A stretch of DNA of 64,000 nt, taken from Candidatus Woesebacteria bacterium RIFCSPHIGHO2_01_FULL_39_32 (GTDB lineage Bacteria; Patescibacteriota; Microgenomatia; UBA8517). Below, in pieces: positions 7,934 through 57,831 of the stretch. Made by a program: the position numbers and the translations under genes. The notes beneath the pieces are model-generated. The model saw only the letters and a list, made by a program, of their open reading frames with translations, had not been told where the DNA came from and did not search any database. The stretch's first letter is position 1. The number at the start of each line of letters is the position of its first letter. Where the stretch lies: positions 85,371-149,370 of the forward strand of contig MGGJ01000013.1 in NCBI GenBank assembly GCA_001792345.1, in the 5' to 3' direction.

Positions 7934-8530
7934 TTATTTTTTTTCAAATTTATAGTTGAAGTGATCAATATCTTTTTTATAAAGTTTTTGAACTAGTAAG
8001 CGTGTTTTTCGGTCATAGTATTTTGAATAATGGTTTCTTTCAAGCATATTAATGTGTGCGAGTTCTTTATACGTTACATGCAAAATCCCACAAATTTTGT
8101 CAAAGTCATTTTGGATACTTTCAAATCGTCCAACAAAATCTAATATAACTTTTTCACCATCAGAAATCTGATCAAATTGTTGCTGGATAGCAAGATGAAA
8201 AACTGGAGTTTTTATCGGTCCGACTTTAGATTGTCTATATGTTTCTATAAACTCTAACCATTCCTTAAAAGTTTTATTTTTAGCATCCCAACCCCAATGT
8301 TTACTCTTTCTCCATAAGTAGTACGATATCATGCGATCATAAGGATTTCTCACAAATGTAAACTTAAAGTAATTTTCCCAAACACTTTCTCCGACAATTG
8401 TCCTAATGGCAACAGCAGTTTTGTGTTTTTCACCCGGAGGTACTTCGTCTTTTGAAAACACATCCTCTATACTAGTTCCTCCAGTTCTACTAATATGAAC
8501 AAATATAAATTTGTATTTGTGGGAAATCAT
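7934..8530 (-). CDS. Sulfotransferase family protein (carbohydrate-sulfotransferase-like)
   Basis: 5'-PSB-like motif FVHISRTGGTS and 3'-PB-like motif RNPYDRMISYY. Paralogous to the next gene. Confidence 0.6.
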   Translation of the reverse strand: MISHKYKFIFVHISRTGGTSIEDVFSKDEVPPGEKHKTAVAIRTIVGESVWENYFKFTFVRNPYDRMISYYLWRKSKHWGWDAKNKTFKEWLEFIETYRQSKVGPIKTPVFHLAIQQQFDQISDGEKVILDFVGRFESIQNDFDKICGILHVTYKELAHINMLERNHYSKYYDRKTRLLVQKLYKKDIDHFNYKFEKK

Positions 8531-8553
8531 AAGTAATTTTAAGGAAATATTGT

Positions 8554-9183
8554 TTATGTCTCTTGAAATTGATAATTAAAGCATTCAATCTCCTTTATAA
8601 ATAATTCCCTCACTATTTTTCTAGTTTTCTTATTGTAATATTTAGAATAATGCCTTCTATTTTTTCTATGCTTAGATTTTAGTCTAGGCAACTTTGCATT
8701 CGGTATCCCCAGATGGTCACAAACTTGCTTATAGTCTCTATATAAGTTTTCATATCTTATATAATAATCGCAAATTAGTTTTCCCTGAGCATTAAAATAA
8801 AAACGTGTATTTGTCCATTTTTGTTCAAAATTTTCAATAAAGTAGTTAAAAACCAAATCTGGTTCAGTACGATATTTCTCCCAATGATATCGAGAAACAA
8901 CCTGGTCCCAAGGATTTCGTATAACTGTAAACTTATAATAATTATTCCATGTATCGTTCCTAATTTTCTTCTTTATTTCGCTTGGAGGAAGGTGATTATA
9001 ATAACCATCAAAATTCCTCGCCAGATGTTCGTATCGATCATCATCTGAACTTTCAGAATATTCTGTAATAGGTGTAATTATGTCCTCTTTGCCACAACTC
9101 TCAGCTAGAGCGACCTCCAAACTCGTTCCCGCCACCTTTGTCGGTTTAATAAAAATATATTTATGTTTATGCGAAATAATCAT
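8554..9183 (-). CDS. Sulfotransferase family protein (paralog of the previous gene)
   Basis: KPTKVAGTS and RNPWDQVVSRY motifs, with a shared HYSKYY segment. Confidence 0.6.
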   Translation of the reverse strand: MIISHKHKYIFIKPTKVAGTSLEVALAESCGKEDIITPITEYSESSDDDRYEHLARNFDGYYNHLPPSEIKKKIRNDTWNNYYKFTVIRNPWDQVVSRYHWEKYRTEPDLVFNYFIENFEQKWTNTRFYFNAQGKLICDYYIRYENLYRDYKQVCDHLGIPNAKLPRLKSKHRKNRRHYSKYYNKKTRKIVRELFIKEIECFNYQFQET

Positions 9184-21245: not shown

Positions 21246-22331
21246 TCACAAATATTTCTGAAAAAACTCGACTGTGTTTTGCATCGCTTGGGAAAATGCT
21301 GAACCAGTTAAATTATGACCGCCCGAAGAATATTCATTCAATTCGTGCGGAATGCTAGTTTTATCTAATAAACTATCTAAATTTTTACTATATTCAATAC
21401 TCACAACGTTATCATTTACCGCATGGTTAAGTTGCACTGCTCCTTTTATATCCGAGAGATAATTTGTCGCAGGAACTTGTTTCCAAAACCAATGATCTGG
21501 ATTAAATGTGCCATAAGCATCACGAAGTTGCTGTCTTTTTTTAGCTCTTTCCGAATCAGGCGGTGGCGGCTGATAAGAAGTATCTTCTATCCGATACTCC
21601 TGTAAATCCTGGTATGTGTAGCCTGCGCCAGCCCAAATAACAACTGCAGGAATTTCTGGATTAGCTCCCAAAGCTCTAAAAACAACATTTCCTGCCATCG
21701 AATGGCCCCATAAACCAATTGCCCTTGGGTTTACAAAATCAGTATTTCTTAATGCGGCAATAGCGTTTAGTGTGTCAATAACATAATCGGACGAATAATA
21801 TCCTCCACCAGGTTCGCCTTCTGAATTCCCATGTCCGCGAAGGTCTATTTTAAAAACAACAAACCCGTTTTTTGCAAGATAGTCTACATAGGAATTGTAA
21901 TTTACAGTTGTTTGATAATTTTGGGGCGGAATGTAACCGTGTACGAAAATGATAGCTGGATACCTTCGACTATCACCCTGAGCGTTAGTCGAAGGGCTTT
22001 CCTTCGGTATAGTTAATAGCCCATAGACAGTCAGTCCATCAGAATCATAGCTAGTAACGTAAGAGGTATAAATTAGTGTTTCGTTTCCCTTTCGCATTTC
22101 TTCCAGATTACTTAGATAAGATCGTTTTCTTAAATAAGGAATAGTTAATTCTTGAAAAGCAAATGGAGTAGGTGTTGGCGAGGATAATGTTATTGCTTTA
22201 TTAACACCTTCTAAAACCGGCAGAATGACTTCTTTTTTATCACTCCGATTGAAAATGGCAAAGAAAAGAATTCCCAAACCAACTATTAGAATTAACAAAA
22301 TGGGTGTAAAACCTTGAATACTTTTTCTCAT
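21246..22331 (-). CDS. Membrane-anchored alpha/beta hydrolase (S9/dienelactone-hydrolase-like), paralog 1
   Basis: N-terminal TM. GxSxG nucleophile elbow GHSMAGNV. Acid and His likely near the C-terminus. Confidence 0.7.
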   Translation of the reverse strand: MRKSIQGFTPILLILIVGLGILFFAIFNRSDKKEVILPVLEGVNKAITLSSPTPTPFAFQELTIPYLRKRSYLSNLEEMRKGNETLIYTSYVTSYDSDGLTVYGLLTIPKESPSTNAQGDSRRYPAIIFVHGYIPPQNYQTTVNYNSYVDYLAKNGFVVFKIDLRGHGNSEGEPGGGYYSSDYVIDTLNAIAALRNTDFVNPRAIGLWGHSMAGNVVFRALGANPEIPAVVIWAGAGYTYQDLQEYRIEDTSYQPPPPDSERAKKRQQLRDAYGTFNPDHWFWKQVPATNYLSDIKGAVQLNHAVNDNVVSIEYSKNLDSLLDKTSIPHELNEYSSGGHNLTGSAFSQAMQNTVEFFQKYL

Positions 22332-22376
22332 TAATAAATACTACTAAATCCAATTTAATATTTGAAGTTTTGTAAG

Positions 22377-23468
22377 TTACTTAAGATTTTTGTTAAAAAA
22401 TTCAACAGATCGGGAAAGTGCAAGGGATAAGTTTTTACTAAGATTATGATCGTCACCCTCGTATATATAAAGTTCTACTTCTTTCCCTGCATCTTTCATT
22501 TGAGCTTCCAATGTTTTAGAGAATTCTAAGGGAACCGAAGTGTCTGCTGTTCCATGATGAAGCTGTAAAGGTCCAGAAATGTCGGCTAAATAAGAGTTGG
22601 GAGATATAGATTTCCAAAATTCTGGATTTTGATATGGATCTCCGTATTTTTCTATTAGTTCACGTCTCCATCTACCTCTCTGACTCATCGGGTTAATCGT
22701 GGGTGTTGGACCCAGTCTTTTCCTCCAGCGTTCAATCAAATCAGGGTAGCTCCCTACGACCCCTGCCCAGATGACACCGGCTTTAACATCCTTTGTAGTA
22801 ACCATTGCTTTTAGCGTAATCGAACCACCCATCGAATGTCCCCACATTCCAATCCGACTTGTGTCAACAAGTCGTCCTGAGCGACCTAAGGGAGTCGAAG
22901 GATCCTCCGAAAGGTCATTTAGCCTTTTAATAGAGGCGACGGCATTTAGTATGTCAATTGTATACGCATTTGATCCATAACCTCCTGTTGCATCTCCTTC
23001 AGAATTTCCATGCCCACGATAGTCGGATTTGAAAGTTACATAGCCTGCTCTGGCAAATGCATCCTGATACGCAACATATTTTTCGGTAGTTTTATAAATG
23101 GAAGGTGAAATGTAACCGTGATTGAAAATGATAGCTGGCCAACCTCCCACTGGCTGAGTTCCATTCGGTGCGGTTAATAAGCCATAAATTTTTAAGCCTT
23201 CGGATTTATATGAGGCAATATACCTTTTGTAGTTAGATCCTGCGCTTAGAGTTTGTTCGATAATAATATCGCTTCCTGGATATTCGCCTTCTCTGAGGGC
23301 TTGAATCGACAGTGGATGCGGCTCAACTTCTGGACCGCCTTCATTTTCTTGAACAACATTGTATATTATAGATTCCCTAACATCCTGATTTTTTGAAGAA
23401 TAAACATAAGCACTCACCCCCAATAAGATAAGAAGGAAAATTAGTACGAATTTGTTTTTTGTGACCAT
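22377..23468 (-). CDS. Membrane-anchored alpha/beta hydrolase, tandem paralog 2
   Basis: GHSMGGSIT. Colinear with paralog 1 along its length. Confidence 0.7.
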   Translation of the reverse strand: MVTKNKFVLIFLLILLGVSAYVYSSKNQDVRESIIYNVVQENEGGPEVEPHPLSIQALREGEYPGSDIIIEQTLSAGSNYKRYIASYKSEGLKIYGLLTAPNGTQPVGGWPAIIFNHGYISPSIYKTTEKYVAYQDAFARAGYVTFKSDYRGHGNSEGDATGGYGSNAYTIDILNAVASIKRLNDLSEDPSTPLGRSGRLVDTSRIGMWGHSMGGSITLKAMVTTKDVKAGVIWAGVVGSYPDLIERWRKRLGPTPTINPMSQRGRWRRELIEKYGDPYQNPEFWKSISPNSYLADISGPLQLHHGTADTSVPLEFSKTLEAQMKDAGKEVELYIYEGDDHNLSKNLSLALSRSVEFFNKNLK

Positions 23469-30916: not shown

Positions 30917-31015
30917 TTTGTGTTCCTAATCACATTGTAGCATTACCCGATATAATTGTATACTAGATTCATGACTAAATACAAAGAATATTAAAATAAC
31001 AAATATGCTATTTAT

Positions 31016-31363
31016 ATGACAAAATACAAAGAATATTTTGAGAAAATGCTTGCAGAGAACAAGGAACTTTTTGATGAATTCAAAAAGATTCACGCGCAAT
31101 ACACTCTGGATCCTGATAGACTGCAAGATCAATTCAATTTGCAAGGAGAAAAAATTTTGGAAGTAATACGGGAATACGAAAACCGCCTCTGCGCGGATAC
31201 CGAGCGTGGAATGTATAACAAATTCTCGGTAGCCTTAGCCGAAAAATTTCAAAATGAAGTTCAATACCACTTCCCTATGATTGATCATATCGGTTTAATT
31301 GTCGAAAAAGACCAACCTGCCTACGAAGAAAGCTTTAGTATTAAGAAAATTGACCTTTCGTAA
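31016..31363 (+). CDS. Hypothetical 115-aa protein
   Basis: Isolated plus-strand ORF among minus-strand genes. No motif recognised. Confidence 0.35.
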   Translation: MTKYKEYFEKMLAENKELFDEFKKIHAQYTLDPDRLQDQFNLQGEKILEVIREYENRLCADTERGMYNKFSVALAEKFQNEVQYHFPMIDHIGLIVEKDQPAYEESFSIKKIDLS

Positions 31364-35143: not shown

Positions 35144-35602
35144 TTATCCTGACACCATTTTCCCCATCTCCTTGGTTCCTTGTTTCTTTTGTGCAGGACC
35201 CATCATTCCTCTTTTTCGTCTGGTTACCGGTTCAACCAGAGGTGTTTCCGCTTGCGGCTCCTGTTGTCCTTGTTTCATCTCCCCCATAACTTTTTGCTCG
35301 TAACTTTGTTGTTTTTCTTCTCTTTCTCCTCTAAGTTTCTTGAGTTCTTGTTCCAATTCTTCTATTCTACGTTTGGTTTGGGCTTCTTCTTGGGCTTTCT
35401 CTATTGCAGATATCTCCTGCACTTTTCCATTTCCCGTCATTACCTGTTGCATGACAGACATCTCGCCAGGCTTTTCCCTACCCGTAACTTGCGATCCGGC
35501 TGATTTTAAAATCTCGATAGGCTCTAAGGCCACCTGCTTTGCTATCTGCTTAGCAATATCGGCAGTTGTTTTTCCTGCTTTTTTAATTATTCCGTTTGTC
35601 AT
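35144..35602 (-). CDS. Hypothetical K/E/Q-rich coiled-coil protein
   Basis: 152 aa, low complexity. Confidence 0.4.
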   Translation of the reverse strand: MTNGIIKKAGKTTADIAKQIAKQVALEPIEILKSAGSQVTGREKPGEMSVMQQVMTGNGKVQEISAIEKAQEEAQTKRRIEELEQELKKLRGEREEKQQSYEQKVMGEMKQGQQEPQAETPLVEPVTRRKRGMMGPAQKKQGTKEMGKMVSG

Positions 35603-36261
35603 ATGATCCTTCTTCCCTCCAATGCTTCTCTTAACGTTGTTTCATCTGCATATTCTAAATCGGCGCCTGTCGGAATACCCATTCCCAATCTGGTAAGTTT
35701 TACGGTTTCGCCATTTGAGGAGAGCTCTTTTACTTTTTTTGAAATATACATCGCCGTTGCGTCACCCTCCATTGTTGGATTTGTTGCTATAATGATTTCG
35801 CTAATTTTAGCGTCGTTTTCAGAAATCCTTCTTAATAGCTCCGTTATAAAAATTTCATCCGGTCCAATATTATCCAATGGATTTAAACTTCCGTGTAAAA
35901 CGTGATAAATACCTTTATATCTTCCCGTTTTCTCAAAAGCAAGTATGTCCAAAGGTTGTTCGACTACCAAAAGTTGTGTGTGATCTCGGTTTGCATCAGA
36001 ACAAATTGGGCATGGGTCACTCTCGCTTACATTCTTACAGACAGAGCATAGAATTGTTTCTTTCTTTAAATTAGCAAGTGATGTGGCAAATTCTTCAAGT
36101 TCGGTTTGCGGTACATGAAGTAGATAGTAGGTTAAGCGTTGGGCAGTTTTGGGACCAATTCCCGGTAGTTTCTGGAACGCTTCAATTAATCTTGATAATG
36201 GTTTGGGTATTCTCATCACGCTATATATTAAAGTTTCCAGTGTCCAATTTCCAGTCTCCAA
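35599..36261 (-). CDS. recR: Recombination protein RecR
   Basis: HhH (LPGIGPKTAQRL), a C4 zinc finger (CSVC...CPIC) and a Toprim C-terminus. Confidence 0.9.
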   Translation of the reverse strand: METGNWTLETLIYSVMRIPKPLSRLIEAFQKLPGIGPKTAQRLTYYLLHVPQTELEEFATSLANLKKETILCSVCKNVSESDPCPICSDANRDHTQLLVVEQPLDILAFEKTGRYKGIYHVLHGSLNPLDNIGPDEIFITELLRRISENDAKISEIIIATNPTMEGDATAMYISKKVKELSSNGETVKLTRLGMGIPTGADLEYADETTLREALEGRRII

Positions 36262-44687: not shown

Positions 44688-45398
44688 TTAGCTTTTCTGT
44701 TTCTCAGTTTTTTTCTTACTTCCTTTTCCTTCGATAATCGTTTCTCCCATCAATTCCAATACGTATTCAACTGCTCGAGTTGCGTCATCGTTCATTGGAA
44801 TAGGATAGTCCAAGTCCGTTGGATCACTATTGGAATCAACTATTCCTACAGTTGTAACTCCACTTGCGATGGCTTCTTTGACTGCAGTTATTTCGCGTCT
44901 AACATCAACTATAACTAAAAGATCGGGTAGTTTTTGCATTCCAACGAGTCCTCCAAAAAATCGTATCAATCTTTGAACTTCACGATCGATAAGGAGTCTT
45001 TCTTTTTTTGTGTAACCCTTATACTCTCCTGACTCAAGTCCCTTTTTCATCTCTTCCAATTTCTGGAGGGACCTTTTTACCTGCTCAAAGTTGGTTAAAA
45101 TTCCACCTAGCCAGCGCTCGTTTATAAAAAAACTACCGGAATCCTCCGCAACTTTTTTAATTTGCTCTTTTGCTTGTTTTTTGGTTCCGACGAAAAGAAT
45201 TGTTTTACCTTCCTTTGAAGCTGTTTTAAGAACATTCAACGCCTCATCTAGTGCTTCTTTAGTTTTCGTTAAATCAAAAATGTGGATACCGTCTTTTTCT
45301 CCGTAAATAAACTCCTTCATTTTCGGATTCCAACGACGGGTCTGATGCCCGAAATGAGCACCCGACGCAATAAGTTCTTTAAGCGATACCTCTGGCAT
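44688..45398 (-). CDS. rpsB: 30S ribosomal protein S2
   Basis: LIASGAHFGHQTRRWNP, colinear with S2. Confidence 0.9.
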   Translation of the reverse strand: MPEVSLKELIASGAHFGHQTRRWNPKMKEFIYGEKDGIHIFDLTKTKEALDEALNVLKTASKEGKTILFVGTKKQAKEQIKKVAEDSGSFFINERWLGGILTNFEQVKRSLQKLEEMKKGLESGEYKGYTKKERLLIDREVQRLIRFFGGLVGMQKLPDLLVIVDVRREITAVKEAIASGVTTVGIVDSNSDPTDLDYPIPMNDDATRAVEYVLELMGETIIEGKGSKKKTEKQKS

Positions 45399-45549: not shown

Positions 45550-47481
45550 ATGTCCGACAACGATTTAGATGCTCAGGAGCTATTGCCGACCGAGGGGAAG
45601 AATTTACAAATCGAGAATAAGTATCCTGCAACTCTTTACTTGGCAATTATTAAACAGATGGGAAGTAAAGATATGATGACACGTCTTGCGGGAGAAAAAA
45701 TCGGGTTTGTTGAATCACAAGATCCCGAGCATCCCTTGGTTAATATTGAATCCAGGATACGTGGGAATTTAATTCATACCCAATGGGAAGATATTCCTGA
45801 CCACCCTGGATCAAGACGGGGAGTTGGTAAACAGATACAAGAATTCAATTGGGAGACCAGATTTAAACTTCATAATCATACATATATAGATGAGGAAGTG
45901 GCATCCTCAATAGGTAGTCAATTAACAGAAAAAGGTTATGAAACTCGGACTGAATCTACCCGAACTGGATCTAAAAAGATGTTTATCGAGTCCCCTGCGG
46001 GGAAATTTGAATTGTCGTTAGGCTTTCCAAATCCACAAGCACTGATCAAGTTTTACCAAGACCAATTGGTTGAATATAGAGCAAAGTATTCAAGTCTTGT
46101 CCAGTTTCAACTTTCGCAAATTGAAACAGTTCGGAAAGGAGAAGAAGAAAGTTCTTTACACCTTGAAATAGCCAATTCGCATCCCAATTTAGGCCCTTCG
46201 GGAACTCCTTTAGAATCGAAAGAACAAGCTCTGGCTTATATAGAGCAAGGTAAAAAGCTAGCTGAATTTGTTGCAACCTTATTGACCAAAGAGCTTGGTG
46301 GTGGTAGGAGTTTTCCAGTCATAAATATGGAATGGAAGACTAGTTCTGTCCAACCTGCCCTATGGCATGAAGCAGGAAAAGTTAACCTCCTTGAAGACTT
46401 AAAAAACATACCGATAAGCGAATTAAATTCCTCCCTTGTCAGAGTAATACAGACTCTTAAGGAGGAAAAGAACGCCCCTGATCTTTTTACCAAAAGTGGA
46501 ATGGACTCGGAAGCCAAAAAAATGCTCGGCTTAATCGAAGATTATTTCCAAAATCGTTTTACAGTAATTAAACCTGAAGATTTTGCTACCTTAGATGGAC
46601 AGGACAAGGCTTTATTAGCACTTGGGCTTACCTTGAAGTCGATAGAAGGAGCAATAGTTAGGGACAACGATCGTTTTATTCCCCCTAATCAATCCAGTAT
46701 ATGTGGGGTAAAATTTCAAAGATATGGCGAGAGTATGCGCGACCGTTTCGAATTTTATATGCAACAAGATCGGAAGTTCAAATATGACAAAGAAACCTCA
46801 GAACCAGCAGATTTCCTTTTACTACACACTACTTTTGAAGGGCAAGCCGATAATTTAACAAGATATGAAAGAATACAATCAGAGAATTTGGGGAAGACAA
46901 GGCAATGGATTATTACACAATTAGAACCCGAAAAAGCAGGAAGGTATACTGCTGATGACGTGGAAAAGATAAACAGCTTGCTGCTCCTTGACTTAGTCCC
47001 CGATCGTGTCCTCGGCATGTTCAGGAAAACACAGAACGCGATGATTGAAGGGCGGATAGGCATGACCCAGCCAGAAGACATCGAGAGAAATCTTAATTCT
47101 TTACTAGAAAATACAGGTAAATATATTTCAGATACACAAAGATCTGGACAGATCGACGAGGATGCCGTTTTACGTACCCTCGTGCAAAATTGGTCATATT
47201 TTGATGCCATTCACCCAATGGAAGAAGGAAATGGAAGAACAGGAACATTGCTCTTCGAATCCTGGTATAGGCTCTTATATGGTTCGCAAAAACGTTTTGT
47301 ATCTGAAAGAAAAGAGTCTTATTTACTATCGCAAGCTATATCAGAGGCACTGAAAGGTAACTCGAACTATGAGTTTTGGTATTCTCCAAACTCCAAACCA
47401 TCAGGCCTAGAAGGAGATATTGAACCTCTTTTTGAATATGTCAAATCTCACTTGGTAGAAACCGCCGAACCAACAAGTTAA
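45550..47481 (+). CDS. Large Fic/Doc-family (AMPylation-type) domain protein with a long N-terminal region of unknown function
   Basis: C-terminal Fic core motif HPMEEGNGRTGT, matching HPFx(D/E)GNGR with the last Arg replaced by Thr. Confidence 0.6.
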   Translation: MSDNDLDAQELLPTEGKNLQIENKYPATLYLAIIKQMGSKDMMTRLAGEKIGFVESQDPEHPLVNIESRIRGNLIHTQWEDIPDHPGSRRGVGKQIQEFNWETRFKLHNHTYIDEEVASSIGSQLTEKGYETRTESTRTGSKKMFIESPAGKFELSLGFPNPQALIKFYQDQLVEYRAKYSSLVQFQLSQIETVRKGEEESSLHLEIANSHPNLGPSGTPLESKEQALAYIEQGKKLAEFVATLLTKELGGGRSFPVINMEWKTSSVQPALWHEAGKVNLLEDLKNIPISELNSSLVRVIQTLKEEKNAPDLFTKSGMDSEAKKMLGLIEDYFQNRFTVIKPEDFATLDGQDKALLALGLTLKSIEGAIVRDNDRFIPPNQSSICGVKFQRYGESMRDRFEFYMQQDRKFKYDKETSEPADFLLLHTTFEGQADNLTRYERIQSENLGKTRQWIITQLEPEKAGRYTADDVEKINSLLLLDLVPDRVLGMFRKTQNAMIEGRIGMTQPEDIERNLNSLLENTGKYISDTQRSGQIDEDAVLRTLVQNWSYFDAIHPMEEGNGRTGTLLFESWYRLLYGSQKRFVSERKESYLLSQAISEALKGNSNYEFWYSPNSKPSGLEGDIEPLFEYVKSHLVETAEPTS

Positions 47482-47520
47482 TTTCAAACAGCTGTTTTGA
47501 AAGTAACACTTAATCATTTA

Positions 47521-47585
47521 TAACTCCAAGCTGCCTCGACTAAATTTTCCAAAAGAGCTAAATTTGTAACAGTGCGATTCCGATT
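47521..47585. repeat. Direct repeat of the folD 3' end (partner at 48415-48470) flanking the VanY gene
   Basis: GCTGCCTCGAC(T/C)AAATTTTCCAAAAGAGCT has 30 of 31 positions identical, with decaying similarity for ~20 more nt. The partner copy encodes the FolD C-terminus LLENLVEAAI. Confidence 0.6.
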
Positions 47586-48399
47586 ATTCTAATTTATACT
47601 TTCCTCCACCCCCAACGGGTCTCTCAGGTCTTATCGGATGAGAGGTTCTTTTTTCTAAATACGCTTTTTGGAGATCAAAAACGTCACTTTCCCAACCATT
47701 TTTTCTCAAAGCTTGGAAATATTCTGCAACGTTTTTTCCGACATATATCCAATGCCATGATTCGTTTGTTATACCGTCGTGGCCTCGATCGTAAGAAATG
47801 ACAAAACCGTATTCCCAAGCGTTTTTTACTAACCATTCATATTCCCTTGTTTTTTCAAATCCCGCTCCTTCTTTAGCTACATTCCCAATGCTGAGAGTAG
47901 TAAAGTCAAGCGCAAGACCTGTATGGTGTTGTGAAGTTCCTGGCAGCATTGATGTTTTATTATCCTCGCCTTCGCGCTTATGTATTAATTCCTGTTCTTC
48001 CCAAGAACGGTATCCGCTTCTTACTTTAATATCAACCCCAGCAATTGAAGATGCAATTAATAAATCTTCCAATGGTTGAACTACCAACGAATGGATTCTA
48101 ACTTTACCAGTAACATCTGCTCGTCTTAGGAACCCTTCGGGAGAAAACTGACTTAGAGGTTTTAGTTCAGGTTCTATTTCTTCCTTAATAAAAGATTGCT
48201 CTAAAGGATGCTCTCTATCGACCAACTTAACGCATAATAGATCTTCGGGTTCGGGAAGATTTGTTGGCTCTTTGTCGGAAGTTGTGTTAGAAAATTCATT
48301 GGGTTTTAACGCAAGAGTCCCGAGACCCAGTGCACTAAGTTTTAAGAAATCTCTTCTTGTAACTTGTTTTTGATTTGCTTCTGGATTATCTTCGCTCAT
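47584..48399 (-). CDS. Tat-secreted VanY-type D,D-carboxypeptidase (peptidase M15B)
   Basis: Twin-arginine signal RRDFLKLSALGLGTLAL. M15 motifs SGYRSWEEQ and H-x-x-G-x-A-x-D (QHHTGLALD). Confidence 0.7.
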   Translation of the reverse strand: MSEDNPEANQKQVTRRDFLKLSALGLGTLALKPNEFSNTTSDKEPTNLPEPEDLLCVKLVDREHPLEQSFIKEEIEPELKPLSQFSPEGFLRRADVTGKVRIHSLVVQPLEDLLIASSIAGVDIKVRSGYRSWEEQELIHKREGEDNKTSMLPGTSQHHTGLALDFTTLSIGNVAKEGAGFEKTREYEWLVKNAWEYGFVISYDRGHDGITNESWHWIYVGKNVAEYFQALRKNGWESDVFDLQKAYLEKRTSHPIRPERPVGGGGKYKLE

Positions 48400-48412
48400 G
48401 ATTCAAGTTAAT

Positions 48413-49222
48413 TTAAATCGCTGCCTCGACCAAATTTTCCAAAAGAGCTGATATTGTGATGGGACCGATGCCACCTGGGACTGGAGAAATAAAAGCGGCT
48501 TTATCGATAATTTCATCGGCTTTTACATCGCCTTTCGGTGAGCCCACGTCTATAATCACAGCCCCATCCTTTATTTCCTCTTTTCCAATAATTCCAGGAG
48601 AACCTGTCACGCTTATCAAAATATCTGCTTGTCTTGTCTTAGTATTTAGATTTTCAATCTCTCTGTCGAGTCCTTCGACAACGTAGACCATTTCTTTCAT
48701 AACTTTAAAAATCTTTTTCCCTTCAAATCCCTTAGCTCCAACTACTGCCACCTTTAAAGGTGGCACCTTTAAAGTAATATAAGGAGTTGCTTCACGAACT
48801 ACTTCCAAAACTGCTTTTACAGTTGGGGTTAGATATAGACCATCTTCGCGTAAACCGTCAACATCTTTTTCTTTTGCAATTGTCTTAATTATTTCGTCTC
48901 TGTCTTTTTCAGAAAAATTCGCAGGAAGTGGCAACTGCACCATTATTCCGTGGGTACTTTCATCCTTATTTAAAGTCTGAATCAATCCAATAATCTTTTC
49001 TTTTCTTACATCTGACATCATACTTCTTACTTCTACTTCAGCTCCTACTCTTTCCGCTGCTTTTTTCTTTAATTTGACATACATAACGCTTGCCGGATTA
49101 TCTCCAACAAGAATTGAAACTAGTTTTGGTTTGATACTTCTTTCACTTAGTCTCTTAATCTCTTCTTTTAACTTAATTTCTTTCTCTCTCGCAAATGTTT
49201 TTCCATCAAAAATAATTGCCAT
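48413..49222 (-). CDS. folD: Bifunctional 5,10-methylene-THF dehydrogenase/cyclohydrolase
   Basis: N-terminal block AIIFDGKTFA...KLVSILVGDNPASVMYVKLKKKAAE and a C-terminal NAD(P)-binding domain. Confidence 0.85.
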   Translation of the reverse strand: MAIIFDGKTFAREKEIKLKEEIKRLSERSIKPKLVSILVGDNPASVMYVKLKKKAAERVGAEVEVRSMMSDVRKEKIIGLIQTLNKDESTHGIMVQLPLPANFSEKDRDEIIKTIAKEKDVDGLREDGLYLTPTVKAVLEVVREATPYITLKVPPLKVAVVGAKGFEGKKIFKVMKEMVYVVEGLDREIENLNTKTRQADILISVTGSPGIIGKEEIKDGAVIIDVGSPKGDVKADEIIDKAAFISPVPGGIGPITISALLENLVEAAI

Positions 49223-49332: not shown

Positions 49333-49602
49333 GTGAAAATAATGTATAAAGTTCAGAAAAAAGATGGTACACAAGAGGATTTTGACCCAAACAAGATATT
49401 AAGCGGGGTGAAGAAAGCGGGTGGATCCGAAGAGGATGCTCAGAAGGTTCTTTCTGAAATCCAGGCTTGGTTACCTACTGCAGCACAAAATAACGTAGTT
49501 AAAGCACTAGATATAAGAACAAAAGGACTCGAAGTGCTTGAACAAGTTAGTCCCGAAGTCTTTACAAAATTCAAATCCTACGAAAAACCGCCCACAAGCT
49601 AG
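49333..49602 (+). CDS. Stand-alone ATP-cone domain protein
   Basis: MYKVQKKDGTQEDFDPNKI matches the ATP-cone consensus (V.KRDG..E.F...KI). A GGAGG RBS lies 8 nt upstream. Confidence 0.55.
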   Translation: MKIMYKVQKKDGTQEDFDPNKILSGVKKAGGSEEDAQKVLSEIQAWLPTAAQNNVVKALDIRTKGLEVLEQVSPEVFTKFKSYEKPPTS

Positions 49603-49915: not shown

Positions 49916-51217
49916 TCAAGGAACTGGGAATTTTTGGCAGAGGGTTTTGACTTCAGAAGCAATACCCAACAAAAATTTATCTTTCTCAATTTTTGATCTG
50001 AATGCCTTCAAAAATGTTGATCTGGCTTCTGGTTTTTCAGGAAGTTTATAGGGCTTCACATAATCAATTACTTTTAAAATCCAAGTTGCAATTTGTTTCA
50101 TTTCCTTTTCCTTCATTCCCCTGGTTGTCAATGCGGGAGTACCAAGCCGCAATCCGGAAGGATAAAAGGGGGGCATTGTGTCATTTGGAACTGAATTCCT
50201 GTTTGCCACAATTCCCGCAACTTCCAAGCTTTGGGCAACAACATTTCCTGATAGTTCTAAAGGTCTTAAATCGACAACTAATAAATGGCATTCTGTTCCA
50301 TTTGCAACTAAGGTTAACCCTCCGTCCAACAGGGCGCTGGCTAGTGCCCTGGCATTTTTGACTACTTGTTTTCCGTAAGTCTTGAAAACAGGAGTATTTG
50401 CCTCCTCTAAAGAAATCGCGATTCCGGCAGTGGTATTGTTGTGCGGTCCTCCTTGCATACCGGGAATTATCGCCTTATCAATTTTTGCAGGAAGTTCAGG
50501 ATCTTTTTTAACTCCCTTAGCTGTCGCCAGAATCATGGCACCCCGCGGTCCACGTAAGGTCTTATGTGTTGTACTTGTAACAAGATGTGCGTGAGTAAAT
50601 GGCGAGGGATAAACCCCAGCAATAATTAAGCCAATAACATGAGAAGCATCTGCAACTAACCATGCCCCGATTGAGTCGGCTATTTCTGCGAGCTTTTTCC
50701 AATCAAAGGCTAGAGGATATGCGGTTGTTCCAATCAGCATGAGTTTTGGTTTTTCCTTTTGAGTTTGTGCACTGATCTTTTTGTAGTCTAATAACCCCTT
50801 ATCATCCAAGCCGAATTGTACAGAGTTAAAATATTTACCGGAAAAAGTAACTTTCGGATGACCGTGTGTTAAATGCCCGCCGGAAGCCAGTTCAAGACCC
50901 ATAATCGTGTCCCCGGGTTCAACTAAAGCAAACAAAACTTCTGAGTTGGCAGGAGAGCCGGAATACGGTTGGACATTTGCATAAGGAACTTTGAAGAGAT
51001 TTTTAGCGCGCTCAATTGCAAGGGTTTCAATTTCATCAATGATTTTATTTCCCTGATAATATCTGCGACCGGCATACCCTTCTGAATATTTATTTATTAA
51101 AACGGATCCGACGGCTTCCCGAACGGATTTTGAAGCATAATTCTCCGACGGAATCATCATAAGTGTTTCGCCCTGCCTTTTTTCTTCCTTTTTAATTAAT
51201 TCAAATATTTTATCCAT
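49916..51217 (-). CDS. glyA: Serine hydroxymethyltransferase
   Basis: NKYSEGYAGRRYY and PLP-lysine block VTSTTHKTLRGPRG. Confidence 0.9.
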   Translation of the reverse strand: MDKIFELIKKEEKRQGETLMMIPSENYASKSVREAVGSVLINKYSEGYAGRRYYQGNKIIDEIETLAIERAKNLFKVPYANVQPYSGSPANSEVLFALVEPGDTIMGLELASGGHLTHGHPKVTFSGKYFNSVQFGLDDKGLLDYKKISAQTQKEKPKLMLIGTTAYPLAFDWKKLAEIADSIGAWLVADASHVIGLIIAGVYPSPFTHAHLVTSTTHKTLRGPRGAMILATAKGVKKDPELPAKIDKAIIPGMQGGPHNNTTAGIAISLEEANTPVFKTYGKQVVKNARALASALLDGGLTLVANGTECHLLVVDLRPLELSGNVVAQSLEVAGIVANRNSVPNDTMPPFYPSGLRLGTPALTTRGMKEKEMKQIATWILKVIDYVKPYKLPEKPEARSTFLKAFRSKIEKDKFLLGIASEVKTLCQKFPVP

Positions 51218-54688: not shown

Positions 54689-56737
54689 TTAATTAACTTC
54701 TTTTTCTGTTTCCTTATCTTTGATTGCACCCGGTTTACGCCAGCTTGCCCATTTGCATTTCGGATAACGGGAACAGCCGTAAAACTTCTTCCCTCTTCTT
54801 GTAGTTTTTACAATTATGTCACCCTTTTTACACTCTGGGCATTTCATTCCAAGCTTTTCAATATATTTCTCGGTATGTTTACACTCCGGAAAAAGAGAGC
54901 ATGAAATAAATTTTCCAAATCTTCCAACCCTAATAACCAAATCTCCTTGTTTATCTCCCACTCTTCCTTCTAATTCACATGTTGGGCATTTTTTCCCAAG
55001 TTTCTCCGCTTCAATTTTTACACGTTTGGCTTTTTCTTCAACTTCTTCCAATTTTTTATCAAAGGGTGTGTAAAATTCGCTCATCATTTTTTGCCACTCC
55101 CGTTCTCCTTTTGCAATATTATCTAACTCATTTTCCATCTGGGCTGTAAACGAATAGTCAACAATGTTTTTAAAGTTCAATACCAAAAAATCATTTACCG
55201 CTATTCCAATAGGAGTCGGCTGGAATTTTCCTTCCAACTTTTCAACATAATTACGAACTTGAATTGTTGTGATAATCGGGGCGTAGGTTGACGGCCTTCC
55301 AATTCCTAGTTTTTCTAGAGTTTTAATTAAAGATGCTTCATTATAACGGGGGGGTGGTTGAGTAAACTTTTGTTCAGATGTAACTTTTATTAAATCGAGT
55401 GCTTCATCTATCCCAACAACAGGTAATTCTGGAGCCTCTTCTTTTGAAAGCGGGATAACTTTTCTCCAACCATCAAACTTCATGACTTGTCCGCTCGCGC
55501 GAAGAAGATAATTGTTAGTATTTAATGATTGATGGCTAATTAGGGGGGTTGCGAGAACATCAATTGCAGTTTCGTCAAAAACACTCTCTGTCATTTGACA
55601 TGCTACAAACCGGCGCCAAATAAGATCGTATAATCTCTCTGCATCTTTCTCGAATTTGTAATTTGTAATTTGAAATTTGGTATTTATATCTGTAGGACGT
55701 ATTGCCTCATGTGCCTCTTGAGCAAGCTTGGAAGTTTTTCTGAAAAATCTAGGTTTTTCCGGTATATATTTAACTCCAAAATTCTTTGAAATATATTCTC
55801 TTGCTTTTGATACAGCAGCTGCTGCCAAATTTACGGAATCTGTTCTGTGATAAGTAATGAGACCTTCCTCATAAAGTCTTTGAGCTACAGACATTGTTCT
55901 TTTTGCCGACCAACCGAAAAGTCTTGCGCCTGCTTGAGTCATTGTCGAAGTCGTAAAAGGTGGGTATGGATTTTTTCTTACTTGCCTTTTTCTGACATCA
56001 AAGACTTTGTATCCAGCCTTTTCAAGATCCGTTACTACTGCTTTTGCTTCTTGCTCGTTTTTAACTTCCGCTTTCTTCTCACCAACCTTAACCAACTGAA
56101 CAGTAAGGTCTTCGGTTTTGAGTTCTGGGTTTTGAGTTCTGAGTTGACAAAATATCTCCCAATACTCCTCGGATTTGAACGCTTCAATTTCTCTTTCGCG
56201 CTCTACAATTAAACGAACTGCAACTGATTGCACCCTGCCTGCCGATAAACCACGACGTATTTTTTTCCACAATAAGGGAGATAGTTTGTATCCAACAAGC
56301 CTGTCAAGAACGCGTCGCGCAATTTGTGCATCAACCAAATGAACATCGATGCCTCGAGGATTTACAATTGCTTCTTCTACCGCTTCTTTTGTAATTTCGT
56401 GGAAAACAATCCGCTTTAATTGGTCTGTGGTCAGTGGTCCGTGGTCAGTTAAAATCTCTTTTACATGTTGGGCGATTGCCTCTCCCTCACGGTCAGGATC
56501 CGTTGCAATAAATATCTTGTCGGATCTAACGGCCGCATCCTTTATCTTTTTAATACTATCTGCCTTTTTCTCAACAGCTAAATACTTTGGTTCAAAATTT
56601 TTCTCGAGGTCAACGGCTAATTCACTTTTAGGTAAATCTTTAATATGCCCCATTGTGGCTTCCACCGAATACTCTTTCCCGAGGAAGCGGGATAACGTAC
56701 GAGCTTTAGTTGGCGACTCGACAATTATTAAATTCAT
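54689..56737 (-). CDS. topA: DNA topoisomerase I
   Basis: Toprim N-terminus MNLIIVESPTKARTL, a catalytic Tyr region, and three C-terminal C4 zinc ribbons. Confidence 0.9.
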   Translation of the reverse strand: MNLIIVESPTKARTLSRFLGKEYSVEATMGHIKDLPKSELAVDLEKNFEPKYLAVEKKADSIKKIKDAAVRSDKIFIATDPDREGEAIAQHVKEILTDHGPLTTDQLKRIVFHEITKEAVEEAIVNPRGIDVHLVDAQIARRVLDRLVGYKLSPLLWKKIRRGLSAGRVQSVAVRLIVEREREIEAFKSEEYWEIFCQLRTQNPELKTEDLTVQLVKVGEKKAEVKNEQEAKAVVTDLEKAGYKVFDVRKRQVRKNPYPPFTTSTMTQAGARLFGWSAKRTMSVAQRLYEEGLITYHRTDSVNLAAAAVSKAREYISKNFGVKYIPEKPRFFRKTSKLAQEAHEAIRPTDINTKFQITNYKFEKDAERLYDLIWRRFVACQMTESVFDETAIDVLATPLISHQSLNTNNYLLRASGQVMKFDGWRKVIPLSKEEAPELPVVGIDEALDLIKVTSEQKFTQPPPRYNEASLIKTLEKLGIGRPSTYAPIITTIQVRNYVEKLEGKFQPTPIGIAVNDFLVLNFKNIVDYSFTAQMENELDNIAKGEREWQKMMSEFYTPFDKKLEEVEEKAKRVKIEAEKLGKKCPTCELEGRVGDKQGDLVIRVGRFGKFISCSLFPECKHTEKYIEKLGMKCPECKKGDIIVKTTRRGKKFYGCSRYPKCKWASWRKPGAIKDKETEKEVN

Positions 56738-57831
56738 ATTTTTTTGTAAACTCCATTCCCAATGTTTTTAATCATCCCTTTTAATTCCATAACAGTCAGT
56801 TTCCCAGAAACTTCCGAAACTTTCAACCCCGATATTCTACCAATTTCGTCAAGATGTAAGGGCTCTCTTTCTAATATTTCGATCAATTTCTCTTCTAAAC
56901 CATCATTCGGTAAAATTTTTTCTACAGCTTCCTTATCAACTCTCAGCTGTAAATCTAATTCTTCTAATATATCTTGGGAAGATGTGATCATCTTAGCTCC
57001 GTTTTTAATTAAATAATTGGGAGCGGCCGACATGGGGGAGAAAATTTGTCCCGGCACTGCAAATACAGTTCTTCCTTGATTCGCCGCATGTTTTGCCGTA
57101 TGAATAGTTCCACTTTTAATCATACCTTCGACCACAATAACTGCCTTTGACAAACCTGAAATTATCCTATTTCTAAAGGGGAAAAAATGCCGCTGGGCTT
57201 CGACTCCCGGAGGAAACTCTGAGACAATTGCACCACCCGTTTTTATGATTTTTAGGCCCAACCACTCATTTGATCTTGGAGTAATTACATCCACCCCTGA
57301 AGCCAATACTGCAATGCAGCGCCCGTTAACTTCAAGCACACTTTTATGAGCAGCTAAATCAACTCCGAAAGCAAGTCCTGAAACTATAGTTATACCGACG
57401 CTGGCAAGCTCCATTGCCAGTTTTTCTGTCACCTCGCGTCCATAAGAAGTCATTTTCCTGCTACCCACAATCGCGACTGCATTACAATCATTTTTGCTTA
57501 AGGCTCCTCTTACATATAAAACTTGTGGTGCATCCTCCAATCCTTTTAGGTTTTCCGGATAATCCTCGTCATTAATTGTAACAAAATCAATTCCGTAATC
57601 ATTCAATCTATTAAAGTATCTTTCGAAATCAAACCCATCCCTATACTCTAAAAAACTTTTAATTGTTTTTTCCCTTAAACCGACCTCTGCTAATTTTTGA
57701 AATGTAGCATTCCATGCATTTTTTGCACCACCAAAGTATTGCGTCAGAAGTTTTGTCCTGACAGGACCAAATTGGGTATATGAGGTTAATGCAACTAAAT
57801 ATTTTTTACTGATGTCTTCTTTCTGGCCCAT
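56734..57831 (-). CDS. dprA: DNA-processing protein DprA (Smf)
   Basis: Rossmann-like core VAIVGSRKMTSYGREV...IVSGLAFGVDLAAHK and a C-terminal winged helix. Confidence 0.85.
   Translation of the reverse strand: MGQKEDISKKYLVALTSYTQFGPVRTKLLTQYFGGAKNAWNATFQKLAEVGLREKTIKSFLEYRDGFDFERYFNRLNDYGIDFVTINDEDYPENLKGLEDAPQVLYVRGALSKNDCNAVAIVGSRKMTSYGREVTEKLAMELASVGITIVSGLAFGVDLAAHKSVLEVNGRCIAVLASGVDVITPRSNEWLGLKIIKTGGAIVSEFPPGVEAQRHFFPFRNRIISGLSKAVIVVEGMIKSGTIHTAKHAANQGRTVFAVPGQIFSPMSAAPNYLIKNGAKMITSSQDILEELDLQLRVDKEAVEKILPNDGLEEKLIEILEREPLHLDEIGRISGLKVSEVSGKLTVMELKGMIKNIGNGVYKKI

What the first reader, a model, noticed from the sequence alone, without database searches (positions are those of the whole stretch)
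47521..48470. Single-gene cassette (Tat-secreted VanY/M15 peptidase) flanked by ~50-bp direct repeats duplicating the folD 3' end
The last ~32 nt of folD (48415-48470, encoding ...LLENLVEAAI) recur nearly identically (30 of 31) at 47527-47560, immediately downstream of the VanY-like gene. There they would encode the orphan fragment ...LALLENLVEAAWSYK. Duplication of a gene's 3' end bracketing an inserted gene is the classical footprint of site-specific integration at a gene terminus. Here the cargo is one cell-wall peptidase with a twin-arginine signal.
Basis: seen in the sequence. Interest (0 to 1): 0.6.

Follow-up and report, generated by a model that had tools for sequence, protein, structure and literature searches.

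The report
Orphan folD end behind inserted peptidase gene
In this groundwater Woesebacteria genome, a cell-wall peptidase gene was spliced in directly after the housekeeping gene folD, leaving a dead second copy of folD's last ~50 bases; this is a real recombination scar at a gene-insertion hot spot, but nothing shows it is a self-mobile element.

Summary
The repeat is real. 47530-47559 matches 48420-48449 at 29 of 30 bases, occurs nowhere else in the window, and none is expected by chance. It is compound: about 50 nt of the folD terminus, then 40 nt present only in the distal copy, then a further 14/16 match that reaches into the stop codon of the convergent Fic gene.

Only the Tat-signal VanY/LdcB-like peptidase gene lies between the copies. 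The distal copy is an orphan folD end (...LLENLVEAAWSYK*).

Among 103 related loci, folD is normally followed directly by rpsB (median gap about 190 nt). VanY and Fic are therefore both insertions. One other lineage, not the sister lineage, has folD-VanY-rpsB without a repeat. A third Woesebacterium (L011) has an independent orphan folD end behind a toxin-antitoxin pair.

No integrase or transposase is found in the insert or in any ORF of at least 150 aa in the 64-kb window. There is no attC-like fold, no viral match and no GC contrast. The identical blocks in the two cases cover different parts of folD.

Best reading (about 0.5): host recombination with DNA from a relative, anchored in folD, stacked a VanY allele in front of a Fic allele. 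A trans-mobilised cassette remains possible (about 0.2).

The parts
48413..49222 (-). folD (269 aa), the functional gene. It ends ..LLENLVEAAI*, one of the shortest tails (a single residue after EAA) among the 70 relatives' C-termini printed.
   Evidence: PF00763 and PF02882. C-termini of relatives. The same protein occurs on at least 24 contigs of the same population.
48404..48469 (-). Proximal repeat copy. It comprises the last ~50 nt of folD (core 48420-48449), the stop codon (48413-48415) and the 11-mer AAATTAACTTG (48404-48414), which matches the Fic 3' end.
47584..48399 (-). The only gene between the copies: a Tat-signal M15B (VanY/LdcB-like) peptidase of 271 aa. It starts 13 nt after the folD stop, and no promoter-like site lies in that gap.
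   Evidence: Pfam VanY E = 1.1e-27. TIGR01409 above its cutoff, and family-level hits only in NCBIfam. PDB 4ox3 YodJ, E = 3e-16. His, Asp and other residues in the SQHHTGLA.D and E.WH stretches are invariant across the seven aligned homologues; that these are the metal ligands is from general knowledge of the family. Promoter scan.
47474..47570 (-). Distal repeat copy, the orphan folD terminus. Core 47530-47559. Orphan frame ..VTNLALLENLVEAAWSYK*, stop at 47514-47516. A 40-nt stretch absent from the proximal copy (47490-47529). The 11-mer at 47474-47484 overlaps the Fic stop codon and its last two codons.
   Evidence: Homology to folD stops sharply upstream: 12/30, where true orthologues keep 17-25/30.
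45550..47481 (+). Fic-domain protein (643 aa), convergent on folD/VanY. It is lineage-specific cargo at the same hot spot, and its 3' end is part of the duplicated unit.
   Evidence: PF02661. It is absent from all 103 related folD loci. Its homologues (54 % and 39 % identity) sit in unrelated contexts.
44688..45398 (-). rpsB, the conserved right-hand neighbour of folD in relatives. It marks the end of the ~2.95-kb inserted region.

Best explanation
The distal copy is a displaced, dead 3' end of folD. It was left by general (host) recombination with DNA from a related Woesebacterium at the folD-rpsB accessory-gene hot spot.

Proposed sequence of events:
1. The ancestral junction was folD-rpsB.
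2. In this lineage a Fic gene came to lie tail-to-tail with folD, which then ended ..EAAWSYK*. That old junction survives intact as the distal copy plus spacer plus Fic end.
3. A piece of DNA then arrived carrying a folD terminus followed immediately by the VanY-like gene. It paired with the resident folD by homology. Its far end, just after the VanY stop, was joined illegitimately about 54 nt before the resident folD stop. This is homology-facilitated illegitimate recombination, or equivalently a single crossover with a circularised fragment.
4. folD stays intact with a new short tail (..EAAI*). That tail is derivable from the old one by a ~40-nt deletion between CAGCT repeats.
5. VanY is read from the folD transcript, and the old terminus is orphaned.

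Shown: the compound repeat, the orphan frame, the empty sites, the hot spot, the absence of a recombinase, and a second independent case.

Inferred: the order of events, the donor, the enzyme, and co-transcription of VanY with folD.
For: - Empty sites. The closest relatives (FolD 69, 63 and 64 % identical) have folD directly followed by rpsB. Of 78 loci with both genes, 58 have a gap of 400 nt or less, median 186 nt.
- Hot spot. Other cargo sits downstream of folD in other lineages: a 4.4-kb block in L011, an IS1595 transposase in L042, and VanY alone in L032-37.
- Two different termini. The tails of the two copies are unrelated (I* versus WSYK*) and both look like natural FolD tails of the clade. 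This excludes a simple local duplication.
- Close origin. The two copies share the derived Ala codon GCT where relatives have Cys or Ser. They are nearly identical at synonymous sites in the core, while orthologues match only 20-25/30. Both termini therefore come from very close relatives.
- Fic came first. The duplicated unit includes the last 8 nt of Fic.
- Independent L011 case. 47 nt at 85 % identity, with all 7 differences at synonymous third positions (P about 1e-4 if random). Two alleles that evolved as coding sequence were therefore juxtaposed.
- No shared core. The identical blocks differ between the two cases: GGLGP codons in L011, ALLENLVEAA codons here.
- Recombination among relatives. 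FolD identity to relatives is mosaic, for example 84 % then 40 % against L011.
- No recombinase in 64 kb, but dprA and recR are present. Competence in Patescibacteria is documented (PMC10633639, PMC12455944).
- The same mechanism is proposed for orphan 3' ends in T6SS and rhs arrays (PMC5361080).
- No GC contrast, which fits a related donor.
Against: - In both cases the orphan copy starts within 0-13 nt of the cargo's stop codon. That is more naturally explained by a compact dedicated cassette than by a random illegitimate joint.
- Identity along the repeats is uneven. Here the core is 29/30 but the left arm about 10/15. In L011, 0 of 5 third positions differ in the first 16 nt against 7 of 10 after it; the hypergeometric p = 0.019 is my own arithmetic. 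This core-plus-diverged-arms pattern is what att sites look like.
- VanY sits at exactly the same position in a lineage that is not the sister of this one, which could mean targeted insertion.
- No donor allele (folD-VanY with the Fic vestige, or folD..WSYK-Fic without VanY) was found.
- Homology-facilitated illegitimate recombination is rare where it has been measured (PMC5361080).
Confidence: 0.5

Rival explanations
1. A dedicated integrase-less mini-cassette (VanY ORF plus a folD-terminus-like att site, about 890 nt as a circle). A site-specific recombinase encoded elsewhere inserts it into the folD 3' end, and the element supplies a replacement folD tail. This is the first reader's model with a trans-acting enzyme, comparable to an integrase-less att-flanked element or a miniature e14/icd case.
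For: - The duplicated gene terminus brackets the insert, and folD stays intact.
- The insert is essentially one ORF with 4 nt upstream and at most 13 nt downstream. L011's orphan likewise starts 7 nt after the PIN stop.
- The pattern of an identical core with diverged arms is seen in both cases.
- In L011 the replacement terminus differs only synonymously, as in icd/icdC at e14.
- The folD end is used recurrently, with different cargo, in 2-3 lineages.
- VanY's presence does not follow the housekeeping-gene tree.
Against: - No recombinase in the insert, in the L011 insert, or in the 64-kb window.
- The identical blocks of the two cases do not overlap in folD, so there is no common core.
- The proximal copy carries a vestige of the lineage-specific Fic end, so the supposed att site is a literal copy of the local junction rather than an evolved mimic.
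- Only 2 of about 95 surveyed loci carry an orphan.
- No other copy of the core in the window and none in viral contigs.
- The predicted excised FolD form is absent from the protein collection.
- All 10 population contigs are identical.
Confidence: 0.2
2. In-situ duplication. A VanY-sized fragment was inserted in one step with a long (57-97 nt) target duplication, for example by replication template switching or staggered breaks. The two copies then diverged, with a 40-nt deletion in the proximal copy and small indels in the distal one.
For: - The two copies share sequence on both sides of the folD stop, including the non-coding spacer and the Fic end.
- They share the derived GCT codon and near-identical synonymous sites.
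- The 40-nt difference is flanked by CAGCT microhomology, which is typical of a deletion (read from the sequence).
Against: - Divergence is uneven (1/30 in the core against about 5/15 in the left arm), which is unexpected for neutral decay of one copy.
- It cannot explain L011, where the two copies differ only at synonymous sites and have unrelated tails.
- No known bacterial mechanism routinely produces ~100-nt target duplications around a foreign ORF (my own knowledge).
Confidence: 0.1
3. The newcomer is the other side. The lineage inherited folD-VanY-rpsB (as in L032-37). The Fic gene arrived later on a fragment that began inside a donor's folD terminus, anchored by homology in rpsB. VanY is then bracketed only by accident.
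For: - The folD-VanY adjacency exists in another lineage.
- Fic is unique to this lineage at this locus and mobile among contexts.
- The orphan terminus, spacer and Fic end look like one intact convergent junction.
Against: - The 11-mer identical to the Fic end lies between the folD stop and the VanY ATG (p about 0.001). This is unexplained if VanY was there first.
- The VanY-bearing lineage L032 is sister to VanY-less L021, not to this genome; an exclusive window+L032 clade appeared in 0 of 200 bootstraps.
- No folD-Fic junction occurs in any of the 103 loci.
Confidence: 0.12
4. Chance similarity, a shared terminator or regulatory motif, or an assembly artefact.
For: The encoded peptide LLENLVEAA is the most conserved part of FolD in the clade, so similar DNA could recur.
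Against: - 0 matches expected by chance.
- Orthologues reach only 20-25/30.
- No terminator pattern and no stable fold, z = +1.0.
- The arrangement is identical on 10 independently assembled contigs from several samples.
Confidence: 0.01

Closest known systems
e14 / phage 21 integration into the 3' end of icd in E. coli (icd plus the orphan icdC)
   Same: The inserted DNA brings a substitute 3' end for a housekeeping gene. The original terminus is left as an orphan pseudogene at the far side of the insert. The two termini differ mainly by synonymous changes (as in L011). Recombination between them would restore a functional chimeric gene (PMC13626634).
   Different: e14 is a 15-kb prophage with its own integrase and SOS-induced excision. 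Here the insert is 0.83 kb with one gene. No integrase is found in 64 kb, no excised form was seen, and the two Woesebacteria cases use different identical blocks.
Homology-facilitated illegitimate recombination, or 'C-terminal displacement', in T6SS effector-immunity and rhs arrays
   Same: A conserved upstream gene part serves as the homology anchor. New downstream cargo is added rather than swapped. Orphaned 3' ends and older cargo are pushed downstream. No integrase is involved, and the organism carries competence genes (PMC5361080).
   Different: Here the anchor is a housekeeping metabolic gene, not a polymorphic toxin. The orphan is only about 55 nt. The cargo (peptidase, Fic, toxin-antitoxin pair) is functionally unrelated to the anchor gene. 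The illegitimate joint cannot be verified without the donor.
Integron gene cassettes
   Same: A promoterless single ORF with very tight boundaries, inserted downstream of a promoter-bearing site. Older cargo lies further from the insertion point.
   Different: There is no IntI, attI or Pc nearby and no attC-like imperfect palindrome. The two flanking sites are homologous to each other and to a gene terminus, which integron sites are not.
Integrase-less att-flanked elements (CIMEs of streptococcal ICE families; recalled from my own knowledge, not checked here)
   Same: A DNA segment bounded by direct att-like repeats that are copies of a gene's 3' end, with no recombination genes of its own.
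   Different: CIMEs coexist with cognate ICEs that use the same att site. No such element or integrase was seen at any of the 103 folD loci; the only mobile-element gene found was an IS1595 transposase in L042.

Membership tests
Site-specific integrative element in a gene's 3' end (e14/icd type) | Direct repeats that duplicate the target gene's 3' end flank the insert, and the gene stays intact | tested here: met
   Core 29/30; compound homology 48404-48469 versus 47474-47570; folD is full length.
Site-specific integrative element in a gene's 3' end (e14/icd type) | An integrase or recombinase is encoded within or next to the element | tested here: not met
   Only VanY lies between the repeats. 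No recombinase or transposase domain was found in any ORF of at least 150 aa in the 64-kb window or in the L011 insert.
Site-specific integrative element in a gene's 3' end (e14/icd type) | An empty site exists in related genomes | tested here: met
   folD is directly followed by rpsB in L021, L023 and L025-27, and in 58 of 78 loci.
Site-specific integrative element in a gene's 3' end (e14/icd type) | The same att core is used in independent integrations | tested here: not met
   The window's identical block covers the ALLENLVEAA codons. L011's identical block covers the GGLGP codons. The two do not overlap.
Site-specific integrative element in a gene's 3' end (e14/icd type) | An excised circle or a restored empty junction is detectable in the population | tested here: inconclusive
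   All 10 contigs carry the insert. The predicted restored FolD (..EAAWSYK) is not in the protein collection. A pattern scan of metagenome contigs returned nothing, not even the known locus.
Integron gene cassette | IntI integrase with attI and Pc upstream of the array | tested here: not met
   No integrase in the window. The upstream neighbour is folD itself.
Integron gene cassette | An attC site: an imperfect palindrome that folds as a single strand | tested here: not met
   The region 47470-47590 folds no better than shuffles (z = +1.03).
Homology-facilitated illegitimate recombination / 3'-end displacement scar | An orphan 3' fragment of a conserved gene lies downstream of the full-length gene, with variable cargo between and after | tested here: met
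   Window and L011. The cargo is VanY then Fic in the window, and vapBC then hypothetical genes in L011.
Homology-facilitated illegitimate recombination / 3'-end displacement scar | The two termini are different alleles that evolved as coding sequence in different genomes | tested here: met
   L011: 7 of 7 differences are synonymous, P about 1e-4. Window: the tails are unrelated and both are natural-looking, but the core is too similar to test.
Homology-facilitated illegitimate recombination / 3'-end displacement scar | Microhomology at the illegitimate joint, and an identifiable donor allele | not testable with these tools
   Outside this organism's own population (one 99 %-identical FolD cluster and contigs identical across the locus) the nearest FolD is 69 % identical. 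No donor or intermediate allele was available.
Homology-facilitated illegitimate recombination / 3'-end displacement scar | The host has DNA-uptake and recombination functions | tested here: inconclusive
   dprA (56734-57831) and recR (35599-36216) are in the window. comEC, recA and pili were not in view. Competence is shown for Saccharibacteria only (PMC10633639).
Transposon / insertion sequence | A transposase, terminal inverted repeats and a short (2-15 bp) target duplication | tested here: not met
   No transposase is present. Inverted repeats around the insert are weak (13-17 nt at 82-85 %). The duplication is at least 57 nt.
M15B VanY/LdcB peptidases (the cargo gene) | VanY domain with conserved His/Asp residues (SxHxxGxAxD ... 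ExxH), plus an export signal | tested here: met
   PF02557 E = 1.1e-27. His, Asp and neighbouring residues in the SQHHTGLA.D and E.WH stretches are invariant across the seven aligned homologues. TIGR01409 Tat signal is above its cutoff. No NCBIfam equivalog cutoff is reached, so only family level is claimed.

The most novel reading that the evidence does not exclude
The folD terminus of Woesebacteria is the docking site of a previously undescribed class of minimal, integrase-less gene cassettes. Each cassette would be one or two ORFs plus a folD-terminus mimic, moved by a recombinase encoded elsewhere in the genome or on a helper element. New cassettes would enter next to folD and push older cargo (Fic, hypothetical genes) towards rpsB. 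That would be a CPR analogue of an integron or CIME array built on a housekeeping gene's 3' end.
Probability: 0.15. Interest if true: 0.7.

Novelty: new member of a known kind. Interest (0 to 1): 0.38.

Why it matters
Mobile elements and mechanisms of gene gain are poorly known in CPR/Patescibacteria, whose genomes are tiny and streamlined.

This locus shows, at base-pair resolution, how accessory genes are stacked between two conserved operons (dcd-thyX-tmk-glyA-folD and rpsB-tsf-frr) without any local integrase. The cargo includes a secreted cell-wall peptidase, a Fic protein and toxin-antitoxin pairs. The scars allow the order of events to be read.

If the scars come from homology-anchored recombination with DNA from relatives, they are direct genomic evidence that transformation-type gene flow shapes uncultivated Woesebacteria. 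If a trans-acting recombinase is responsible, it would define a new cassette system.

Either way the orphan terminus is a pseudogene fragment that annotation should not call a gene. The 30-nt repeat also offers a route to precise loss of VanY that would restore a functional folD.

Tried and rejected
- Chance or a conserved-motif explanation: rejected. 0 matches are expected, and orthologues match only 20-25/30.
- Shared terminator or structured RNA: no terminator pattern and no fold.
- Simple tandem duplication of folD end plus VanY followed by deletion: rejected because the two tails are unrelated.
- The orphan copy as a small gene: the frame has no plausible start, and the region is non-coding remnant.
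- Compositional foreignness: none. GC is 0.37-0.41 throughout.
- Phage or plasmid origin: there is no match to the core, and only distant (27-30 %) VanY relatives occur in viral contigs.
- Looking for the ancestral or excised allele:
  - A degenerate DNA pattern for ENLVEAAWSYK in metagenome contigs gave 0 hits, but it also missed the known locus, so this is uninformative.
  - Exact look-up of the predicted restored FolD proteins for the window and for L011 found neither in the collection.
- A remnant after VanY in the L032-37 lineage: none above shuffle level.
- A third case in L090: only a 15-nt exact match (E = 3e-4 in one of about 100 searches), left as borderline.
- The TTAACTTG motif as a conserved feature downstream of folD: no. 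It occurs only in the window's two copies and in L023.
- The P0010 FolD variant (99.7 % identical to L011's FolD, with a different tail after LLENLV): its contig could not be fetched. Other cluster members with odd ends look like assembly errors, so it was not used.
- Fic homologues next to folD elsewhere: none.
Full report
**Source and genes**

The window belongs to a Candidatus Woesebacteria MAG from Rifle groundwater (GCA_001791885.1, contig MGFL01000030.1). Read in the direction of folD (the minus strand), the local gene order is:

| Gene | Coordinates | Note |
|---|---|---|
| glyA | 49916-51217 | |
| ATP-cone gene | 49333-49602 | small, opposite strand |
| folD | 48413-49222 | |
| VanY-like gene | 47584-48399 | |
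| orphan folD terminus | about 47474-47570 | |
| Fic-domain gene | 45550-47481 | opposite strand, convergent |
| rpsB | 44688-45398 | |

The VanY-like protein has the PF02557 domain (E = 1.1e-27). It has a twin-arginine signal (TRRDFLK; TIGR01409 above its cutoff). His, Asp and neighbouring residues in its SQHHTGLA.D and E.WH stretches are invariant across the seven aligned homologues. Its best solved relative is B. subtilis YodJ/LdcB.

**The observation**

- 47530-47559 matches 48420-48449 at 29 of 30 bases, extending to 38 nt at 89 %.
- A 3-mismatch search finds only these two sites, and none is expected from shuffles.
- It is the best direct repeat within 8 kb in the whole window.
- In the folD frame the distal copy reads ..VTNLALLENLVEAAWSYK*.
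- Ten independently assembled contigs of the same population are identical across the 1120-nt region, so this is not an assembly artefact.

**The repeat is compound**

A gapped alignment (score 77.8 against a shuffle maximum of 39) shows four segments:
1. A more divergent left part, about 10/15.
2. The 30-nt core.
3. A 40-nt stretch present only in the distal copy (47490-47529). It carries the WSYK* tail and spacer and is bounded by CAGCT on both sides.
4. A further 14/16 match containing the exact 11-mer AAATTAACTTG.

In the distal copy that 11-mer overlaps the stop codon and last two codons of Fic (47474-47484). In the proximal copy it lies between the folD stop and the VanY ATG (48404-48414). 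Its co-occurrence next to both cores has p about 0.001. It is not a conserved feature downstream of folD in relatives.

The duplicated unit is therefore the old folD/Fic tail-to-tail junction. The material between the copies is AATC, the VanY ORF and at most 13 nt. The present short folD tail (..EAAI*, one of the shortest among the relatives' C-termini) can be derived from the ..EAAWSYK* version by the ~40-nt deletion.

**Is the distal copy just a diverged orthologue or a motif?**

No. True orthologues at 58-69 % protein identity match the proximal copy at 20-25/30 in the core and 17-25/30 in the 30 nt upstream. The distal copy matches at 28-29/30 in the core and then drops to 12/30. Both copies share a derived Ala codon (GCT) where relatives have Cys or Ser. 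The region has no terminator pattern and no significant fold.

**Comparative context**

- The closest available relatives (FolD 69, 63 and 64 % identical) have folD followed directly by rpsB, with spacers of 110-225 nt.
- In a survey of 103 Microgenomates folD loci, 78 have rpsB downstream on the same strand, with a median gap of 186 nt. In 58 of them the gap is 400 nt or less.
- VanY and Fic together (about 2.95 kb) are therefore insertions into a conserved junction.
- Other lineages carry other cargo there. L011 has 4.4 kb of toxin-antitoxin and hypothetical genes. L042 has an IS1595 transposase.
- VanY occurs at this locus in only one other lineage (L032-L037; VanY 66 % identical). There the folD stop overlaps the VanY ATG, rpsB follows, Fic is absent and no folD remnant is detectable.
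- In a neighbour-joining tree of RpsB+Tsf+Frr+M50 (884 columns), that lineage is sister to the VanY-less L021. It never formed an exclusive clade with the window genome in 200 bootstraps. VanY at the folD end therefore needs at least two events.
- Beyond these two lineages, VanY homologues are at most 45 % identical and sit in genomes with complex I genes, that is, non-CPR bacteria.
- Fic homologues (54 % and 39 %) are in unrelated contexts.

**A second, independent scar**

A motif, DNA and Smith-Waterman search of all loci found only one other clear orphan folD terminus (scores 78 and 47 against a control maximum of 34). It is in L011, Woesebacteria RIFCSPLOWO2_01_FULL_39_10.

- folD 6857-6903 recurs at 7716-7762 (47 nt, 85 % identity).
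- The two copies bracket a ribbon-helix-helix antitoxin and a PIN toxin gene that has an in-frame stop.
- Both copies encode GGLGPVTISCLLENL.
- All 7 differences are synonymous third-position changes (P about 1e-4 if random).
- The tails are unrelated (VEAARR* versus TNQLK*).

The two termini therefore evolved as coding sequence in different genomes before being juxtaposed. The first 16 nt are identical, while 7 of the next 10 third positions differ (p = 0.019, my arithmetic). The orphan begins 7 nt after the PIN stop. One caveat: a 20-N scaffold gap lies between L011's folD stop and the cassette.

**Mechanism**

A plain local duplication is excluded by the unrelated tails. No integrase or transposase is present in either insert, in the flanks, or in any ORF of at least 150 aa in the 64-kb window. 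There is no viral match and no GC contrast. The identical blocks of the two cases lie in different, non-overlapping parts of folD, which argues against one site-specific core.

Three observations point towards general recombination:
- FolD shows mosaic similarity to different relatives.
- dprA and recR are in the window.
- Competence is documented in Patescibacteria (PMC10633639, PMC12455944).

I therefore favour (about 0.5) homology-anchored recombination with DNA of a close relative. It involves one homologous exchange in the folD terminus and one illegitimate joint just after the VanY stop. Topologically this is the same as a single crossover with a circularised fragment. The same process is proposed for orphaned 3' ends in T6SS and rhs arrays (PMC5361080). 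It stacks a VanY allele of the hot spot in front of a resident Fic allele.

A dedicated, trans-mobilised cassette (about 0.2) is kept alive by three things: the very tight cargo boundaries in both cases, the core-plus-diverged-arms pattern, and the non-phylogenetic distribution of VanY. The e14/icd-icdC arrangement is its closest model (PMC13626634).

One-step insertion with a long target duplication (about 0.1) fits the window but not L011. The reading in which Fic and the orphan are the newcomers (about 0.12) conflicts with the Fic vestige upstream of VanY.

**Consequences (inferred)**

- VanY has no promoter-like site in the 13-nt gap and is probably read from the folD transcript.
- Recombination between the two 30-nt cores would delete VanY precisely and restore folD..EAAWSYK. 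No such form was found, but raw reads could not be searched.

**Verdict**

The site-specific integration reading is only partly supported. This is a recombination scar at an accessory-gene hot spot of Woesebacteria, and a new example of a known kind of footprint. The L011 case shows the folD terminus has been used more than once. The mechanistic question (host recombination versus a trans-acting recombinase) remains open and could be decided from raw reads and whole-genome scans.

Noticed in passing
L011:6857-7762 (MGHC01000002.1, Woesebacteria RIFCSPLOWO2_01_FULL_39_10): An independent second case. 47 nt of the folD terminus are repeated 859 nt downstream at 85 % identity, and all 7 differences are synonymous. 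The copies bracket an RHH antitoxin and a PIN toxin gene with an in-frame stop. A 20-N scaffold gap lies just after the folD stop.
   Followed up: yes
L032:500-1600, L035:2649-4312: Another Woesebacteria lineage has folD-VanY-rpsB, with the folD stop overlapping the VanY ATG by 4 nt. Fic is absent and no orphan terminus is detectable. In the housekeeping-gene tree it is sister to a VanY-less genome (L021), not to the window genome.
   Followed up: yes
window 48413-49222 versus relatives: FolD identity to relatives is strongly mosaic along the protein. For example, against L011 it is 84 % in residues 1-45 and 40 % in residues 46-90. Against L021 it is 51 % and then 71-80 %. This suggests intragenic recombination among Woesebacteria.
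   Followed up: partly
protein P0010 (JGI contig of 3888 nt, not fetched): A FolD 99.7 % identical to L011's up to ..LLENLV continues with an unrelated 25-residue tail. This is either another breakpoint in the folD terminus within the same population or an assembly chimera.
   Followed up: partly
L021:1222-1895; L042:1574-2485: Other mobile-type cargo sits around folD in close relatives: a PhdYeFM-antitoxin/PIN pair between glyA and folD (L021), and an IS1595-family transposase convergent on folD (L042).
   Followed up: partly
L090:5733-6150: A 15-nt exact copy of the folD LENLV-coding stretch (GCTTGAAAATTTGGT) lies 322 nt downstream of folD, before a small ORF. It may be a third, decayed orphan terminus, but it is of borderline significance.
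   Followed up: partly
window 45550-47481: A 643-aa protein has a C-terminal Fic motif (HPMEEGNGR) and a long N-terminal region matching no Pfam family. Only 5 homologue clusters exist in the 5.8-billion-protein set, all in different genomic contexts. It may be an accessory effector or toxin.
   Followed up: partly
window 56734-57831 and 35599-36216: dprA (DNA-processing protein A, used in transformation) and recR are encoded in the window. This fits uptake and recombination of external DNA.
   Followed up: no
window 49333-49602: A small stand-alone ATP-cone gene sits on the opposite strand between glyA and folD. It is shared with some relatives (L023, L043, L044, L051, L087, L091, L112) and absent from others, so it is another variable insert in the same operon.
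   Followed up: no
window 47584-48399; L028, L031: Apart from the two Woesebacteria lineages, the nearest VanY homologues (38-45 % identical, all with RR signal peptides) are in non-CPR genomes next to a beta-eliminating lyase gene. Whether this Woesebacterium has a Tat pathway at all could not be checked.
   Followed up: partly
window 30959-31037: Two 34-nt direct repeats (82 % identity) lie 45 nt apart in an intergenic stretch.
   Followed up: no
window 7934-9183 and 21246-23468: Tandem paralogue pairs: two Sulfotransfer_2 genes and two alpha/beta-hydrolase (S9/S33-like) genes.
   Followed up: no
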